DNA of 64,000 nt, from NCBI RefSeq assembly GCF_030013595.1, contig NZ_CP122768.1, one strand, 5' to 3'. Of this stretch, positions 33,541 through 40,263 are shown in pieces; the stretch's first letter is position 1; the number at the start of each line of letters is the position of its first letter. The stretch comes from Escherichia coli. GTDB lineage: Bacteria > Pseudomonadota > Gammaproteobacteria > Enterobacterales > Enterobacteriaceae. The notes under the pieces were generated by a model, which was not told where the DNA came from, ran no database searches, and worked only from the letters and a program-made list of their open reading frames with translations. Position numbers and translations under genes: made by a program.

Positions 33541-36205
33541 ATTCTGGCGAACAACTGAACTAATACATCAGAATCTGCATTATGTTAAATAAATATAAAA
33601 AGATGGTTTAAATACCCCGTTACTTTTGACTTACACTATACGGTATCGCATCGTTTAATATTCGCACCGGCCAGATTTTTATTTCTATTAGTTGTCACAA
33701 TACTGAATGCGTACGACCACAGTATTCTGGCTCCTGTGTGGTTATGCTTTAATTCTGCGTTCCGGGCAGATAAGCAGTTGCTTGCAGGAATCCTTCTTGT
33801 GTTAATGTCAGTTCCCCTTTTACCAGTGCTGATTTCCACATTCCGTCCAACAGAGCTTATAGCCTTTCCCTGGATTATAGCATTGTCCGGCTGAAGTTCT
33901 TTTTGAATAATAATAGAAGCACTGCTGGCAGATCCAGTCCGTTTTTCATAACCCACTGTACTGATAACCATAATCTAATCAGTAGAAATTGAGTCGAAAA
34001 TAAGCACTACTCCATACAGGATAATTAGAGGTCAGTTTGATTATTCACAATTCATCATCAGCATTTTCTATTTCTGACGAAATCAATATGAAAATAACCA
34101 TATATGATAATTATTATAATAACGGCTTTAATTGGAATACATATATTACAACGTATTATATATAATTGGTATTCTGGGAACTATATTCTCAAAATACAGT
34201 AGAAACGAGGTATGTTTCTGGTGGAAAGGACAGTGGGATTAAAAAGTAAGAATTGATAAAAAAAACGCCAGCAACACATAGTGCCGGCGGAGGGAATACC
34301 CCATGGAGAAAATGTGATGCCTAGAGCATCATGAATATATAATTAAAAATAGTTAGCGTTGTCAATACTTTCACAAAAATAATTTTCGTAGTATAGAAAG
34401 ATATTTTTATGCATGACCTACCTGAATTTGCTCCGGGTAGAGGTTATAAATAAAAATTGAATCACGACAAACACAATATTCATAGTATGGCGATGCCTAC
34501 GCCAGCAAGAATAGCGCCAATAATATTGGGAATATAATAGACACCAGACGCACAGGCATCTCACTCCTTAACAAACAACAATCAGGATATTTACTTTTAC
34601 CAAGCTAACTGTTTACACCCAAAGTACACACAATTAACCATTCAATAACAAATGGCAATATCCATAGCCATACGACTTTACCTTGTAATGTTCGGTATTT
34701 CTTTATAATTATTCTGGGAAATCTAACATTTATTTTTAAAATCAAATTATCTTGTTGTTTAAAAATAAGTTCACATACTTTATCATCTTCTTCCGCCATC
34801 AACATCTCTGCATACTTAAACATTTCAGAACGTTCCTTTAGCACAGAAGAGTAATTATATGTCCAGTTCCCAGGCAATAATGCTTATGGATATTTAATTC
34901 ATAATTTAGAGAATATTTTGCAATAATATTTGGCAGTATTCAGAAATACCTGAAAAATCATACTATACAGCCCTAGGGAATGGATAAAGATTCTAACAAA
35001 GCATTTCAACAATATATACTTGTTAAAAATCCATATCGAAATGCCGTTGCAGCATTAATATATGCCTCATTCATAAAATGTAAAAGAGCAAGCTCGTACC
35101 AGTAGGGGGGAAATTCATTGACATGTCCTGTCAATACGTACAGAGCCCTGCCATGCTTGCCAGCACGTAACAATTCCGCCCCCAGTAACCAGCGTGTTCC
35201 CTGATTATTCTCAGGGTTATATGTTAGTATTTTATCAATGAGTATAACGGCATCCTGATGACGCTGTAAATGAACATTCGCCAGAATTGCAGCATAAAGA
35301 GCGCAAATGCATATGCCAGATGAGCGTGAATATCAATGATGTCAGGAGCATGTCAGGCAAGACGCCTGAGTTTGTTGACGTAATTTGTTTCGTTTATTTC
35401 ATCACTATCGTATGCGTCAAGAGTTTTTTCAAACTCATCCCGAAATGGGCCAAGCCTGGTTTCAGGAAATAAGAAATACCCTTGGTTATTGTTCACTTAA
35501 AAGTATAATTTGTAATTCAAATCCTGAGCCTGTAAAGCGGGGAGTAACATATTCTATTCTGAAGAGAATAAAAGTCGTGATGCGATGTATCAAGCCCGGA
35601 TTGTAATCCCAGATTAACATAGATCACAAAACAACTTATTCTTCACTAACGTCAAGATAAATATCGTTGTATGCCTTATCACGACTACGAATACCAGCAA
35701 GATACAACTGACATACGGAAAGATACCACGTTTTTTACTCCCGAAAATAACGCTAAAAAGCTACTTCCCCATCGTTTGTCCTTAGTATTGCCAGCGCCAA
35801 CAATGTGGGCTGACATGATAAAGCTGTCTAGGAAATTGTTCGCCTCCTCAGCGGACAATCCAAATGGTGATTGTCTCTGTTAAACGTTTATTTTGAAGGT
35901 CGACTGAATAAGGTGATGACGCTGTAGAATTTTTCACGTGCCACAGAATTTTGAACGCTTTCTCTTACAATATTTCAATGTTTCTATCAGTATTCGCCGG
36001 AAGAAGTCATCGACCAAATCATCCCAGTCGTCTCGCATCACTGACCATTCATGGTTGACATGTGGTGGAAATCCGCTTCTACAGTAACCATTTTTTATTC
36101 GCAAAACCGAACACGCCATACGGATAGCTGTTAACTGGCATGCCGAGGCAGTCGTTATTTATATTTGGTTTTGTCAATAATCTTTATTTTTTGTAAAAGG
36201 CAAAT

Positions 36206-36224
36206 ATAAATTATTCTCATTATT
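36206..36224 (+). promoter_or_regulatory. Candidate Fur box upstream of iha
   Basis: ATAAATTATTCTCATTATT matches the 19-bp Fur consensus GATAATGATAATCATTATC at roughly 12 positions by eye; ~50 bp upstream of the iha start. Confidence 0.4.
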
Positions 36225-36275
36225 GTTTGTATTTGTGTATTGTCTTGCCGGTTAACATGATCGGAGATTAGTAAT

Positions 36276-38366
36276 ATGCGAATAACCACTCTGGCTTCCG
36301 TAGTCATTCCCTGTCTCGGATTTTCAGCCAGCAGCATAGCTGCTGCAGAGGATGTGATGATTGTCTCGGCATCCGGCTATGAGAAAAAGCTGACTAACGC
36401 AGCCGCCAGTGTTTCTGTGATTAGCCAGGAGGAATTGCAGTCCAGCCAGTACCACGATCTGGCGGAGGCTCTGAGATCAGTAGAGGGTGTGGATGTTGAA
36501 AGTGGTACGGGTAAAACCGGAGGGCTGGAAATCAGCATCCGAGGAATGCCAGCCAGTTACACGCTGATACTGATTGATGGTGTTCGTCAGGGCGGAAGCA
36601 GTGACGTGACTCCCAACGGTTTTTCTGCCATGAATACCGGGTTCATGCCCCCTCTGGCCGCCATTGAGCGTATTGAGGTTATCAGGGGGCCGATGTCCAC
36701 ACTGTATGGCTCTGATGCGATGGGCGGTGTGGTGAATATCATTACCAGAAAGAATGCAGACAAATGGCTCTCTTCCGTCAATGCAGGGCTGAATCTGCAG
36801 GAAAGCAACAAATGGGGTAACAGCAGCCAGTTTAATTTCTGGAGCAGTGGTCCCCTTGTGGATGATTCTGTCAGCCTGCAGGTACGCGGTAGCACACAAC
36901 AGCGTCAGGGTTCATCGGTCACATCACTGAGCGATACAGCAGCCACGCGTATTCCTTATCCCACGGAGTCACAGAATTATAATCTTGGTGCACGTCTTGA
37001 CTGGAAGGCGTCGGAGCAGGATGTGCTCTGGTTTGATATGGATACCACCCGGCAGCGTTATGATAACCGGGATGGGCAACTGGGGAGTCTGACGGGGGGA
37101 TATGACCGGACCCTGCGCTATGAGCGAAACAAAATTTCAGCTGGCTATGATCATACTTTCACCTTCGGAACATGGAAATCGTATCTGAACTGGAACGAGA
37201 CAGAAAATAAAGGTCGTGAGCTTGTACGCAGTGTACTGAAGCGCGACAAATGGGGGCTTGCCGGTCAGCCGCGGGAGCTTAAGGAATCGAACCTTATCCT
37301 GAATTCATTACTGCTTACCCCTCTGGGAGAATCTCATCTGGTTACGGTGGGGGGCGAGTTTCAGAGCTCGTCCATGAAAGACGGAGTTGTCCTTGCCAGC
37401 ACAGGTGAAACTTTCCGGCAGAAAAGCTGGTCGGTATTTGCTGAGGATGAGTGGCATCTCACGGATGCACTTGCGCTGACTGCGGGCAGCCGCTATGAAC
37501 ATCATGAGCAATTCGGGGGACACTTCAGTCCGCGTGCATATCTGGTCTGGGATGTGGCAGATGCCTGGACGCTGAAAGGCGGTGTGACCACGGGATATAA
37601 GGCACCCAGAATGGGGCAGCTACATAAAGGGATTAGTGGTGTGTCCGGGCAGGGAAAAACAAATCTACTTGGTAACCCCGACCTGAAGCCGGAAGAGAGC
37701 GTCAGTTATGAGGCTGGGGTGTATTACGATAACCCCGCCGGTCTGAATGCCAATGTCACAGGTTTTATGACTGACTTCTCCAACAAGATTGTCTCTTATT
37801 CCATAAATGATAACACCAATAGCTATGTAAACAGCGGAAAGGCCCGGTTGCACGGTGTGGAATTTGCCGGCACATTGCCGCTGTGGTCAGAGGATGTCAC
37901 GCTGTCACTGAATTACACCTGGACCCGAAGTGAACAACGTGATGGTGATAACAAAGGTGCGCCGCTGAGTTATACCCCTGAACACATGGTGAATGCGAAA
38001 CTGAACTGGCAGATCACCGAAGAGGTGGCATCATGGCTGGGTGCCCGTTATCGCGGGAAAACACCACGTTTCACCCAGAATTATTCGTCACTGAGCGCTG
38101 TACAGAAGAAAGTGTATGATGAGAAAGGAGAATACCTGAAAGCCTGGACGGTGGTGGATGCAGGTCTGTCGTGGAAGATGACGGATGCCCTGACGCTGAA
38201 TGCTGCGGTGAATAACCTGCTCAACAAGGATTACAGTGACGTGAGCCTGTACAGTGCCGGTAAGAGTACGCTGTATGCCGGTGATTACTTCCAGACGGGA
38301 TCATCAACAACAGGATATGTGATACCTGAGCGAAATTACTGGATGTCGCTGAACTATCAGTTCTGA
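36276..38366 (+). CDS. iha: TonB-dependent outer-membrane siderophore receptor / adhesin (IrgA homologue adhesin)
   Basis: 696 aa; signal peptide; plug-domain and 22-strand barrel features; C-terminal ...YWMSLNYQF aromatic end; length and sequence match recalled Iha. Confidence 0.8.
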   Translation: MRITTLASVVIPCLGFSASSIAAAEDVMIVSASGYEKKLTNAAASVSVISQEELQSSQYHDLAEALRSVEGVDVESGTGKTGGLEISIRGMPASYTLILIDGVRQGGSSDVTPNGFSAMNTGFMPPLAAIERIEVIRGPMSTLYGSDAMGGVVNIITRKNADKWLSSVNAGLNLQESNKWGNSSQFNFWSSGPLVDDSVSLQVRGSTQQRQGSSVTSLSDTAATRIPYPTESQNYNLGARLDWKASEQDVLWFDMDTTRQRYDNRDGQLGSLTGGYDRTLRYERNKISAGYDHTFTFGTWKSYLNWNETENKGRELVRSVLKRDKWGLAGQPRELKESNLILNSLLLTPLGESHLVTVGGEFQSSSMKDGVVLASTGETFRQKSWSVFAEDEWHLTDALALTAGSRYEHHEQFGGHFSPRAYLVWDVADAWTLKGGVTTGYKAPRMGQLHKGISGVSGQGKTNLLGNPDLKPEESVSYEAGVYYDNPAGLNANVTGFMTDFSNKIVSYSINDNTNSYVNSGKARLHGVEFAGTLPLWSEDVTLSLNYTWTRSEQRDGDNKGAPLSYTPEHMVNAKLNWQITEEVASWLGARYRGKTPRFTQNYSSLSAVQKKVYDEKGEYLKAWTVVDAGLSWKMTDALTLNAAVNNLLNKDYSDVSLYSAGKSTLYAGDYFQTGSSTTGYVIPERNYWMSLNYQF

Positions 38367-38395
38367 TAATAACAAAACGCTATCACTGACGGTAG

Positions 38396-38440
38396 AATAC
38401 GTTGCCACTGCAACTCCTGGCGGAACAGTGGCAACGTATT
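38396..38440 (+). terminator. 15-bp perfect inverted repeat 30 bp after iha stop (stem-loop, no T-tract)
   Basis: AATACGTTGCCACTG - 15 nt loop - CAGTGGCAACGTATT. Confidence 0.5.
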
Positions 38441-38879
38441 AGGTTAAGTGCATTTCCGATCCGCTAATGAGATTTCGTTACCAACAACTAATATCGTCAC
38501 AGGAAATGCACGGATTATTTTTAACTTATCATTTACATACTTGTCCAGAGTGTAAGCGCACCGTGAAGGACGTGGGGTAAAAATTAGTTTACAGAGAGAG
38601 TGACGTTCCAGGGCAACAACTCTTTCATGCGGTTGGCAGGCCAGGTGTTGATTACACTGATCACGTGGCGTAGCCACGTTTCCGGCTCGATTCCGTTAAG
38701 TTTTGCAGCTACCGATCAGGCTGTACATCACTGCCGCACTATCGCTCGTCATCTCAAAGTCCGGTCTCGTCAGCAGGAAGGTATCATTCTCTCCCGCCAT
38801 TTTTCCAGGGGCCCGGTCAGATAAGTCCCTTTGTCTATCGCTGACTCCTGACTCATAACCCGGTTAGCAGAATGCAGGG

Positions 38880-39266
38880 TCACCACCTCGCCACGACCAA
38901 ATCCAAATAAGTCAATTGCACCTTCTCAATCGCCATTTTGTCAGTAAGCGTACAGCCTGAACTGATGGTATCTTCACCATCAATGACAACGGTGATCGCA
39001 ATTTTACTGACGTTCGCCGGAACACGATCCAGTGCTATCTCAATGCTGGCCTGCTGCGAACCGGTAACGAGCCTGACTGCCCCCTCAGGAGAAGACAAAT
39101 TATTATAAAAGATAAAGTCAGAATCGCCACTGACCTTTCCCTGAGCATTAAGCATGAACAGGCAGGTATCGGGTTCGCCTTTAAAGCCGGATTTGGCAGG
39201 GTACTGAAGATTCAGCCTGATCGTAGATTGCTGAAGGGGTATGTTTTGTCCGGATTGTAAATTCAT
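38880..39266 (-). pseudogene. terF: TerF-like TerD-domain protein, truncated (N-terminal 128 codons only)
   Basis: MNLQSGQNIPLQQSTIRLNLQYP... parallels the TerA N-terminus; ORF is far shorter than a full ter-family protein of this type and is followed by non-coding debris. Confidence 0.5.
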
Positions 39267-39646
39267 ATTAACTCTCCTGATTTTTGATTATTATTAATGC
39301 GCAGCGTTTATATATGTTCCCTAGGCTTAGTTCTGGACGCTGGATATTCGGTGAGGCGTAAATATGGTATGACACCATTTTTCATAACGCTGAAGTTTCT
39401 ATACCTGTTGAATTTGAATTTTCATTGACCGGGTATCTTATTTTCCAGGGCCCGTTCCTTCATAAGTCGCAAAAGTAACATATATCCGAAGGGCATGCTG
39501 TTGATATCAGACACGGAATACTGGCTTTAACCAGCAACCACAGATAAACCCGGGGCCTGCATAAAAGGTTCATGCCAGAATTAACATAGCTCTGCTTTCT
39601 GCCCCCCCCTTTCCCATATTCACCCGTTGATAGCGGATCGATACCC

Positions 39647-39671
39647 AAAAAAAACCCCGGCATTGCCGGGG
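39647..39671 (-). terminator. Rho-independent terminator after terE
   Basis: On minus strand: GC-rich hairpin CCCCGGCAATGCCGGGG followed by TTTTTTTT, 17 bp after the terE stop. Confidence 0.7.
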
Positions 39672-39687
39672 TCAGACTCAGCGTCTT

Positions 39688-40263
39688 TTAGACATTGACG
39701 CCGTGCTGGGAAGCAAGCGCTGACAGACCACCGGCAAAACCCTGGCCAACAGCTTTAAACTTCCACTCAGTACCATGGCGATACAGTTCACCGAAGACCA
39801 TTGCGGTTTCGGTTGAGGCGTCTTCAGACAGATCGAAACGGGCAATTTCCGTCCCGTTGTCGTTGTTGTAAACGCGCATGAAGCTGTTGCTCACCATGCC
39901 GAAGTTTTGTTTACGCGCTTCTGCATCATAGATGGTAACGGCAAATACCAGTTTTTTGATGTCTGCTGAGACTTTGGTCAGATCGATTTTGACCTGCTCA
40001 TCGTCGCCGTCGCCTTCACCGGTACGGTTGTCGCCCTGGTGCTCTACTGCGCCATCAGGGCTGGTTTTATTATTGAAGAAAATGAAATGGGCATCTGACA
40101 GTACTTTACCGTCTTCACCTACTGCGAATACGGAAGCGTCCAGATCAAAACCCTGACCATCGGTTACACGGGCATCCCAGCCCAGGCCAACCATAGCGAC
40201 ATTCATGGTTGGTGCTTCTTTGGTCAGAGATACGTTGCCGCCTTTTACGAGAGAAACTGCCAT
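39688..40263 (-). CDS. terE: Tellurium resistance protein TerE (TerD domain)
   Basis: Start at [18 protein letters not shown]; TerD-domain paralogue directly after terD. Confidence 0.8.

What the first reader, a model, noticed from the sequence alone, without database searches (positions are those of the whole stretch)
38396..38440. Perfect 15-bp inverted repeat with 15-nt loop directly after iha
Seen: AATACGTTGCCACTG ... CAGTGGCAACGTATT; no T-tract follows, so it is not a classical intrinsic terminator. Could be a protein-binding palindrome, RNA stability element, or recombination site at the iha/ter junction.
Basis: seen in the sequence. Interest (0 to 1): 0.3.

Follow-up and report, generated by a model that had tools for sequence, protein, structure and literature searches.

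The report
Conserved stem-loop ending the iha mRNA
The palindrome just after the iha adhesin/siderophore-receptor gene is a real, evolutionarily conserved RNA hairpin in the gene's 3' untranslated region, most likely marking and protecting the end of the transcript; this is an ordinary kind of feature, not a repeat element or a recombination site.

Summary
A perfect 15-bp inverted repeat with a 15-nt loop lies at 38396-38440, 30 nt after the iha stop codon, with no T-tract. It is the longest close-range palindrome in the window and is not expected by chance.

It is single-copy and always linked to iha (1508 of 5426 E. coli genomes, at most 2 copies each), so it is not REP-like. It travels with iha into at least five downstream contexts.

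Across seven allele types the stem is kept while the sequence changes. Four stem positions show compensatory double changes. Four show G·U wobbles that pair only on the iha-sense strand. The loop varies from 15 to 11 to 4 nt. No allele has a U-tract.

Citrobacter iha orthologues carry an unrelated hairpin at the same position, with its own covariation and mostly no T-tract.

Best reading: an iha 3'-UTR RNA stem-loop of the class found at the ends of Rho-dependent E. coli transcripts. It defines and protects the mRNA 3' end. In this window a second, terminator-like hairpin with a T-run follows at 38448-38522.

The DNA operator, recombination-site and REP readings are not supported. This is a low-interest new member of a known kind. 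The mechanism is inferred; no 3'-end data were available.

The parts
36276..38366 (+). iha coding sequence (696 aa), the gene whose transcript carries the hairpin. The stop TGA is followed in frame by TAA TAA (38364-38372).
   Evidence: ORF list. RefSeq annotation of 100% identical records. Sequence.
38367..38395 (+). A-rich 29-nt spacer between the stop codon and the hairpin. It is variable among alleles (8 of 29 columns vary).
38396..38440 (+). The stem-loop. Left arm 38396-38410, loop 38411-38425 (with a small UCC/GGA inner helix), right arm 38426-38440. The conserved core stem is 38399-38410 paired with 38426-38437.
38438..38442 (.). Junction between the iha-plus-hairpin module and the unrelated downstream block. 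Homology to the btuB-context alleles ends at 38437. Homology to iha-less plasmid copies of the downstream block starts at 38442.
38442..38549 (+). 108-bp block that also occurs without iha next to the 3' end of the pet autotransporter gene on plasmids. It forms the distal part of the iha 3' flank in this lineage.
38448..38522 (+). Second hairpin (arms 38448-38457 and 38502-38511, structured 44-nt interior) followed by GGA and a T-run, TTATTTTT (38515-38522). It is a terminator-like structure on the iha-sense strand.
   Evidence: one compensatory A-U to G-C pair with a G-U intermediate among 4 copies
38552..38743 (-). End of an IS66-family element remnant (starts GTAAGCGCACCG). It truncates the ancestral iha 3' flank. 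The annotated transposase fragment is at 38584-38734.
   Evidence: (IS66 tnpC matches begin at query position 213, which is 38552)
38880..39266 (-). TerD-family gene, the first gene of the convergently oriented ter cluster.

Best explanation
The inverted repeat is transcribed as part of the iha mRNA and folds into a stable stem-loop in its 3' untranslated region. It belongs to the class of U-tract-less 3' stem-loops that mark the steady-state ends of Rho-dependent E. coli transcripts.

Proposed steps:
1. RNA polymerase passes the hairpin.
2. Transcription stops further downstream, either by Rho or, in this window, possibly at the second hairpin with its T-run at 38448-38522.
3. 3'-to-5' exonucleases (PNPase, RNase II) trim the RNA back to the base of the stem.
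4. The stem blocks them, fixing the 3' end and stabilising the message.

Shown here: the structure exists, is single-copy, is inherited with iha, is maintained by selection on pairing on the iha-sense strand, and has positional analogues in orthologues.

Inferred: that it forms in vivo, where the transcript ends, and that Rho and exonucleases are involved.
For: 1. Position and strand. The hairpin lies 30 nt after the iha stop, on the sense strand, and is very stable.
2. Linkage. It is found in 1508 of 5426 E. coli genomes with a median of 1 and a maximum of 2 copies, and among plasmids only in Escherichia. In every iha-bearing locus fetched it directly follows iha; the only copies seen without iha are truncated remnants that begin inside the loop.
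3. Context independence. It is retained in different downstream contexts: IS66 remnant, ISL3 remnant, exc2 plasmids, btuB region and ICEs. Homology of the surrounding module ends at different points.
4. Selection on pairing. Across seven allele types there are compensatory double changes at stem positions 9, 11, 12 and 13. G·U wobbles occur at positions 2, 6, 10 and 14 on the iha-sense reading, and these would be A·C mismatches on the other strand or in DNA. The core 12 bp is 100% paired in all eight aligned alleles. Loop length is free (15, 11 or 4 nt). All alleles fold at -19.5 to -27.3 kcal/mol.
5. Positional analogues. Most of the Citrobacter orthologues examined (72-73% aa identity) have an unrelated GC-rich hairpin about 20 nt after the stop. 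In the ten aligned, 4 of 11 pairs are compensatory. Most lack a T-tract; among the relatives examined only C. koseri and an unclassified Pseudomonadota MAG have a canonical T-tract.
6. Fit to the known class. Dar & Sorek 2018 (PMC6061677) report stem-loops without uridine-rich tails at Rho-dependent 3' ends, with mild C>G enrichment downstream. Here C/G is 1.45-1.6 at 38460-38557, against 0.77 in the iha coding sequence.
Against: No transcript 3'-end, Rho-inhibition or RNA half-life data for iha could be found, so the function is inferred from anatomy and evolution only.

Within the closely related alleles alone the statistics are weak. There are no double changes, and the stem-versus-loop/spacer difference in variability gives Fisher p = 0.08. 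The covariation rests on two divergent ICE-type alleles aligned by hand from the loop-closing pair.

The C>G bias downstream is mild and lies in sequence that was joined to iha secondarily.

In this window a downstream hairpin with a T-run could be the real terminator, which would make hairpin 1 an internal 3'-UTR structure.
Confidence: 0.65

Rival explanations
1. An atypical intrinsic (Rho-independent) terminator. The very stable hairpin alone, or with the weak U content after it, makes RNA polymerase release the iha transcript directly at about 38441-38450.
For: The stem is as long and stable as those of intrinsic terminators. It sits at a typical distance after the stop codon. One orthologue (C. 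koseri) has a canonical hairpin plus T-tract at the same place, which suggests termination is the role of this position.
Against: Only 1-3 U occur in the 10 nt after the stem in every allele. The terminator scan finds nothing on the + strand. From established knowledge, E. coli RNA polymerase needs the U-tract for efficient intrinsic termination. The 15-nt loop is also larger than usual.
Confidence: 0.15
2. A cis-regulatory 3'-UTR RNA element. The hairpin would be a binding site for an RNA-binding protein (for example ProQ) or an RNase, or the 3' end of a UTR-derived small RNA, tuning iha expression beyond simple 3'-end protection.
For: The RNA structure is conserved on the sense strand, and analogous hairpins occur in orthologues.
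Against: The loop sequence and length are not conserved (15, 11 or 4 nt). The Citrobacter hairpins share no sequence with it, so nothing sequence-specific is kept. There is no Rfam match. No U-tail is present for Hfq-type sRNAs. No supporting literature was found.
Confidence: 0.08
3. A DNA-level recombination site, mobile-element terminus or breakpoint hot spot that defines the 3' end of a mobile iha cassette.
For: The iha-plus-hairpin module is joined to unrelated DNA within about 5 nt of the stem base. Homology to btuB-context alleles ends at 38437, and the iha-less plasmid copies of the downstream block start at 38442. Two plasmids carry a remnant that begins inside the loop at 38414. A GTTAAGT motif matching the integron core-site pattern GTTRRRY sits 3 nt after the stem.
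Against: Other boundaries are scattered: downstream at 38376 (a BLAST limit), 38480 and 38549, and upstream at 35927, 36064, 36187 and at or before 35338. The btuB-context and ICE-type flanks are homologous for about 32 nt after the hairpin (p = 0.0005), so a single replacement event explains the junction. There are at most two copies per genome (two where the genome holds a second place with the hairpin) and no recombinase or integron integrase nearby. No RYYYAAC inverse core lies 5' of the stem, and the stem has no extrahelical bases. G·U wobbles would be mismatches in folded DNA.
Confidence: 0.05
4. A palindromic operator bound by a dimeric DNA-binding protein.
For: The repeat has perfect dyad symmetry in this allele.
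Against: The spacing between half-sites varies (15, 11 or 4 nt). Bases in the arms change in a compensatory way rather than being kept. One-sided changes break the DNA symmetry but keep RNA pairing. The site lies downstream of a gene and faces an IS remnant, so there is no promoter to control; the only promoter-like match is at chance level.
Confidence: 0.03
5. A REP, MITE or other dispersed repeat that happens to lie after iha.
For: REP elements are also U-tract-less palindromes found after genes.
Against: At most 2 places per genome in 5426 genomes, with each fetched copy either directly after iha or a truncated remnant of that flank. There is no other copy in the window. It does not resemble the REP consensus (my own knowledge of the consensus, not tested formally).
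Confidence: 0.01

Closest known systems
3'-terminal protective stem-loops of Rho-dependent E. coli transcripts (Dar & Sorek 2018, Nucleic Acids Res, PMC6061677)
   Same: A stable stem-loop shortly after the stop codon, no uridine-rich tail, no A-tract upstream, and mild C-over-G enrichment downstream.
   Different: For iha, neither the 3' end nor Rho dependence has been measured. The 15-bp stem and 15-nt loop are at the large end. The downstream sequence in this window is a secondary acquisition that carries a second, T-run-bearing hairpin.
Canonical intrinsic (Rho-independent) terminators
   Same: The position after the gene, and the stem stability and length. An orthologue in C. koseri has a true one at this position.
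   Different: No U-tract in any E. coli iha allele, a large loop, and no pass in the consensus scan.
REP (repetitive extragenic palindromic) elements acting as mRNA 3' stabilisers (for example malE-malF; from general knowledge)
   Same: An extragenic palindrome without a U-tract that can block 3' exonucleases.
   Different: REPs occur in hundreds of copies with a shared consensus. This element is single-copy and iha-specific.
Hairpins after Citrobacter iha orthologues
   Same: The same position (about 20 nt after the stop), the same strand, mostly no T-tract, and maintenance by compensatory substitutions.
   Different: The sequence is unrelated (GGGCTAT...ATAGCCC core), the stem is shorter (about 11 bp) and the loop is small (3-5 nt).

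Membership tests
Rho-dependent transcript 3' protective stem-loop | Energetically stable stem-loop a short distance after the gene | tested here: met
   About -25 kcal/mol for the 45-nt hairpin. The region scores z = -3.5 to -4.9 against shuffles.
Rho-dependent transcript 3' protective stem-loop | No uridine-rich tail after the stem and no A-tract before it | tested here: met
   1-3 U in the first 10 nt in all seven allele types. The upstream sequence is GACGGTAG.
Rho-dependent transcript 3' protective stem-loop | C-over-G enrichment (rut-like) downstream | tested here: inconclusive
   C/G is 1.45-1.6 at 38460-38557, against 0.77 in iha. The enrichment is mild and lies in secondarily joined sequence.
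Rho-dependent transcript 3' protective stem-loop | Steady-state RNA 3' end at the stem base; read-through on Rho inhibition; trimming by PNPase/RNase II | not testable with these tools
   No Term-seq or bicyclomycin data for iha could be retrieved.
Conserved RNA structure (any) | Pairing maintained by compensatory and wobble substitutions on the transcribed strand | tested here: met
   Four positions have double changes and four have sense-strand-only G·U. The core 12 bp is 100% paired. Caveat: the closely related alleles alone give no double changes.
Intrinsic terminator | U-tract (at least about 5 U in 8) immediately after a GC-rich stem with a 3-8 nt loop | tested here: not met
   No + strand hit in the scan. 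The tail is AGGUUAAGUG and the loop is 15 nt.
REP / dispersed palindromic repeat | Many copies per genome | tested here: not met
   Median 1 and maximum 2 places per genome in 1508 positive genomes of 5426. One copy in the window.
Integron attC site | Inverse core RYYYAAC and core GTTRRRY flanking an imperfect stem with extrahelical bases; integron integrase or cassette array nearby | tested here: not met
   GTTAAGT occurs 3 nt after the stem, but there is no RYYYAAC on the 5' side. The stem is perfect. No integrase is annotated within about 4 kb.
Dimeric-protein DNA operator | Conserved half-site sequence at fixed spacing | tested here: not met
   Arm spacing is 15, 11 or 4 nt, and arm bases change while pairing is kept.
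Known RNA families (Rfam 15) | Match at or above the gathering score | tested here: not met
   Only sub-threshold snoRNA noise, with a best E-value of 0.13.

The most novel reading that the evidence does not exclude
The iha 3' hairpin, and its independently evolved counterparts after Citrobacter orthologues, could be more than a passive exonuclease block. It could be a selected post-transcriptional control element of this iron-regulated receptor/adhesin. For example, it could be a docking site for a 3'-end-binding protein such as ProQ, or a determinant of Rho read-through into neighbouring island genes. Alternatively, its folded DNA form could favour breakage and joining at the stem base and so help iha move between islands, plasmids and ICEs.
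Probability: 0.08. Interest if true: 0.45.

Novelty: new member of a known kind. Interest (0 to 1): 0.15.

Why it matters
The practical value is modest. The result shows that the functional iha unit carried between pathogenicity islands, virulence plasmids and ICEs consists of a short promoter region, the coding sequence and this hairpin. It gives a precise prediction for the iha mRNA 3' end (about 38440-38443). It also provides a well-supported example, with covariation and independently evolved analogues, of a U-tract-less 3' stem-loop on a horizontally acquired virulence gene. This is useful for annotation and for anyone engineering or measuring iha expression. It does not open a new question.

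Tried and rejected
- **REP or multicopy element:** rejected on copy number.
- **Known RNA family:** no Rfam match.
- **Canonical terminator:** the scan was negative.
- **Mobile-cassette end or recombination hot spot:** I mapped the homology boundaries in eight contexts and found them scattered. The apparent double coincidence at the stem base reduced to one event once the btuB-context and ICE-type flanks proved homologous after the hairpin.
- **attC-like site:** only a chance-level GTTRRRY match, with no inverse core, no bulged bases and no integrase.
- **IS110/ISEc20 targeting idea:** dropped, because the window has no ISEc20 near iha.
- **F11 allele:** I first read its hairpin as unrelated. 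On closer alignment it is a diverged homologue, which strengthened the covariation evidence.
- **Experimental iha 3'-end data:** the EHEC Term-seq paper has no held supplements. Text searches found nothing. The original iha paper could not be retrieved.
- **pSTEC411_1 allele:** it has a 1-nt deletion in the right arm, but the record is a 1.4-Mb 'plasmid' of doubtful assembly quality, so I did not use it.

Full report
**Observation.** The arms are 38396-38410 (AATACGTTGCCACTG) and 38426-38440 (CAGTGGCAACGTATT). They are 15 nt long, perfectly complementary and separated by 15 nt. The preceding ORF, 36276-38366 on the + strand (696 aa), is iha. Records 100% identical to the window are annotated 'bifunctional siderophore receptor/adhesin Iha'. 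The window matches the O157:H7 tellurite-resistance/adherence island, in the order iha, IS66-family remnant, ter genes.

The hairpin begins 30 nt after the stop codon. The sequence after it (AGGTTAAGTG) has 3 T in 10, and the consensus terminator scan reports nothing on the + strand. It is the longest perfect close-range palindrome in the 64-kb window; the next has 12-bp arms. None of 60 dinucleotide-preserving shuffles reached 15 bp, and the analytic expectation is about 0.0017 per window.

**Copy number and linkage.** An 81-nt query centred on the hairpin matched 1508 of 5426 complete E. coli genomes. The median was 1 and the maximum 2 places per genome. Among 72,556 plasmids it matched only Escherichia plasmids. 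No other copy exists in the window, even with 2 mismatches. In every iha-bearing locus I fetched it directly follows iha. Rfam has no family for it.

**Contexts.** I fetched iha loci with different downstream neighbours:

| Context | Example |
|---|---|
| IS66-family remnant | the window, Nissle 1917 |
| ISL3 remnant | N5D43, O111:H11 8D |
| exc2 lipoprotein gene on subAB-type virulence plasmids | pOkiPb and relatives |
| btuB region | JNE082640, MDP9-27 |
| Integrating conjugative elements (ICEs) | F11, 64.1 |

Homology to the window starts at 35927, 36064, 36187, or at or before 35338. It ends at 38549, 38480, 38437 or about 38376. The module therefore has no fixed ends. The hairpin is present in all of these contexts. 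In the ICE alleles BLAST loses the similarity just after the stop codon, but the hairpin is still there as a diverged homologue that shares TGCC.CTG / CAGTGGCA.

**Evidence that the structure is selected, and on which strand.** I compared seven allele types arm by arm, counting outward from the loop-closing pair.
- Positions 1-8 and 10 are constant or change to G·U.
- Positions 9 (T-A to C-G), 11 (C-G to T-A), 12 (A-T to C-G) and 13 (T-A to G-C) show compensatory double substitutions between the window type and the ICE types.
- One-sided changes at positions 2, 6, 10 and 14 all give G·U on the iha-sense RNA. On the opposite strand or in DNA they would be A·C mismatches.
- In the eight-allele alignment of close relatives, the 12-bp core is paired in 96 of 96 cells on the sense strand (90 Watson-Crick, 6 G·U). 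Read on the other strand, 6 cells are mismatched.
- The loop is unconstrained. It is 15 nt in the window type, with 6 of 15 columns variable, about 11 nt in F11, and a 4-nt CAGG in strain 64.1.
- All alleles fold at -19.5 to -27.3 kcal/mol.

The outer three pairs that make the repeat a perfect 15 exist only in the O157/UPEC/Nissle allele. Other alleles have C and T-T mismatches there, so this lineage extended the stem by two pair-creating substitutions.

The limits of this evidence should be stated. Among close relatives alone the formal count finds no double changes and no excess over shuffles. The lower variability of the stem relative to the loop and spacer is only suggestive (3 of 24 against 14 of 44 columns, Fisher p = 0.08). 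The covariation rests on two divergent allele families aligned by hand.

**Orthologues.** A scan of one genome per species found chromosomal iha orthologues in 14 Citrobacter-type genomes (71-73% aa identity) and one more distant relative.
- Most have a GC-rich hairpin about 20 nt after the stop codon whose sequence is unrelated to the E. coli one (core GGGCTAT...ATAGCCC).
- In most of them no T-tract follows. Only C. koseri and the distant relative have a canonical hairpin plus T-run.
- In an alignment of ten Citrobacter flanks, the predicted 11-bp helix has 4 pairs with compensatory double changes.

A stem-loop at this position is therefore a recurrent, selected property of the iha transcription unit whatever its sequence. 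That fits a role tied to the RNA 3' end. It does not fit recognition by a sequence-specific DNA-binding protein or recombinase.

**Immediate downstream anatomy.** The iha-plus-hairpin module is joined at 38438-38442 to a 108-bp block (38442-38549). This block also occurs without iha on plasmids, next to the 3' end and terminator of the pet autotransporter gene.

The block contains a second hairpin (arms 38448-38457 and 38502-38511, with a structured interior) followed by GGA and TTATTTTT (38515-38522). Among four copies, one pair shows A-U, G-U and G-C variants. On the iha-sense strand this looks like a loose intrinsic terminator and may be where transcription actually stops in this lineage. 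An IS66-family end (GTAAGCGCACCG...) begins at 38552 and truncates the block.

Alleles in the btuB, exc2 and ICE contexts lack the complete second hairpin but keep hairpin 1. Hairpin 1 is therefore the constant partner of iha.

**Is the stem base a recombination site?** Homology to the btuB-context alleles ends at 38437, and the iha-less copies of the downstream block start at 38442. At first this looked like recurrent breakage at the stem base. However, the btuB-context flank and the F11 (ICE) flank are co-linear and similar for about 32 nt directly after the hairpin (local alignment p = 0.0005 against shuffles). The window-type flank shows no such similarity (p > 0.8).

One replacement event in the ancestor of the window, N5D43 and exc2-plasmid alleles therefore explains everything. 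Two plasmids retain only the sequence from 38414 (mid-loop) onward, next to exc2. These are deletion remnants of the exc2-plasmid arrangement. With a single junction, scattered other boundaries, no partner site and no recombinase nearby, the recombination-site reading is not supported.

**Mechanism.** The anatomy matches the class described by Dar & Sorek (PMC6061677). Steady-state 3' ends of Rho-dependent E. coli transcripts lie immediately downstream of stable stem-loops that lack uridine-rich tails and upstream A-tracts. A mild C-over-G enrichment lies downstream, and the stem-loops protect the RNA from PNPase and RNase II. Here C/G rises to 1.45-1.6 at 38460-38557, against 0.77 in the iha coding sequence. 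That is consistent but weak.

I therefore propose the following. The hairpin forms in the iha mRNA. Transcription ends downstream, by Rho or, in this window, at hairpin 2. Exonucleases then trim back to the stem, which fixes and stabilises the 3' end near 38440-38443. Because iha and the ter genes converge, the structure would also limit antisense read-through.

The existence, conservation and strand of the structure are shown. The termination route and the protective role are inferred. I found no experimental 3'-end data for iha and could not retrieve the original iha paper.

**Rivals.**
- An atypical hairpin-only intrinsic terminator remains possible (0.15).
- A specific regulatory RNA element is unlikely, because neither the loop nor the sequence is conserved (0.08).
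- A recombination site (0.05), a DNA operator (0.03) and REP (0.01) are disfavoured for the reasons given above.

**Verdict.** The feature is real and well supported, but of an ordinary, known kind. It is a gene-specific, U-tract-less 3'-UTR stem-loop on a horizontally mobile virulence gene. It is a new member of a known kind and of low interest (0.15).

Noticed in passing
window 38448-38522: Second, larger hairpin (10-bp outer stem, structured 44-nt interior) followed by a T-run (TTATTTTT) on the iha-sense strand. One pair shows A-U, G-U and G-C variants among four copies. It may be the actual terminator in this lineage.
   Followed up: partly
window 38442-38549; L006 3001-3109; L007 3001-3103: This 108-bp block after the hairpin occurs without iha on plasmids, beside the 3' end and terminator of the SPATE toxin gene pet. 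This suggests an ancestral convergent iha / SPATE-gene arrangement.
   Followed up: partly
window 38552-38743: IS66-family element end (GTAAGCGCACCG...) with a frameshifted transposase fragment on the - strand. It truncates the iha 3' flank exactly where the N5D43 lineage continues into other sequence.
   Followed up: partly
window 38364-38372: iha ends with three consecutive in-frame stop codons, TGA TAA TAA. Other alleles have TGA TAA CAA.
   Followed up: no
L005 and L037 (E. coli F11 and 64.1 chromosomes): In about 80 genomes, many from poultry, a divergent iha allele sits as cargo inside an integrating conjugative element. In strain 64.1 it lies between a conjugative-transfer ATPase gene and the TIGR03757/TIGR03756 ICE genes; the same ICE genes lie downstream of it in F11.
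   Followed up: partly
L011 (JAIJJM010000249.1, 'Collinsella sp.' MAG contig): A 4.4-kb contig binned as the actinobacterium Collinsella is 100% identical to the E. coli iha region, including the hairpin and the IS66 junction. It is almost certainly a mis-binned E. coli contig.
   Followed up: no
window about 39270-39690, compared with L001 5495-6691: The window lacks the ISEc20 (IS110-like) insertion that strain PV15-279 carries between the two TerD-family genes downstream of iha.
   Followed up: no
window 11564-11607: A 12-bp perfect palindrome, AAACGATCGATA / TATCGATCGTTT, with a 7-nt loop. A further direct copy of AAACGATCGAT lies 13 nt upstream. It is the second-longest close palindrome in the window.
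   Followed up: no
window 36155-36337 (- strand): A 60-aa ORF antisense to the iha start is annotated as a hypothetical protein in several RefSeq genomes (for example WP_000922602.1). It is probably an annotation artefact.
   Followed up: no
L008 and L009 (plasmids pRHB13-C13_3 and 158274-3 unnamed1), about 3001: These are remnants in which iha has been deleted. The retained sequence begins in the middle of the hairpin loop (equivalent to 38414), next to exc2. The upstream neighbour is an IS3-type fragment.
   Followed up: partly
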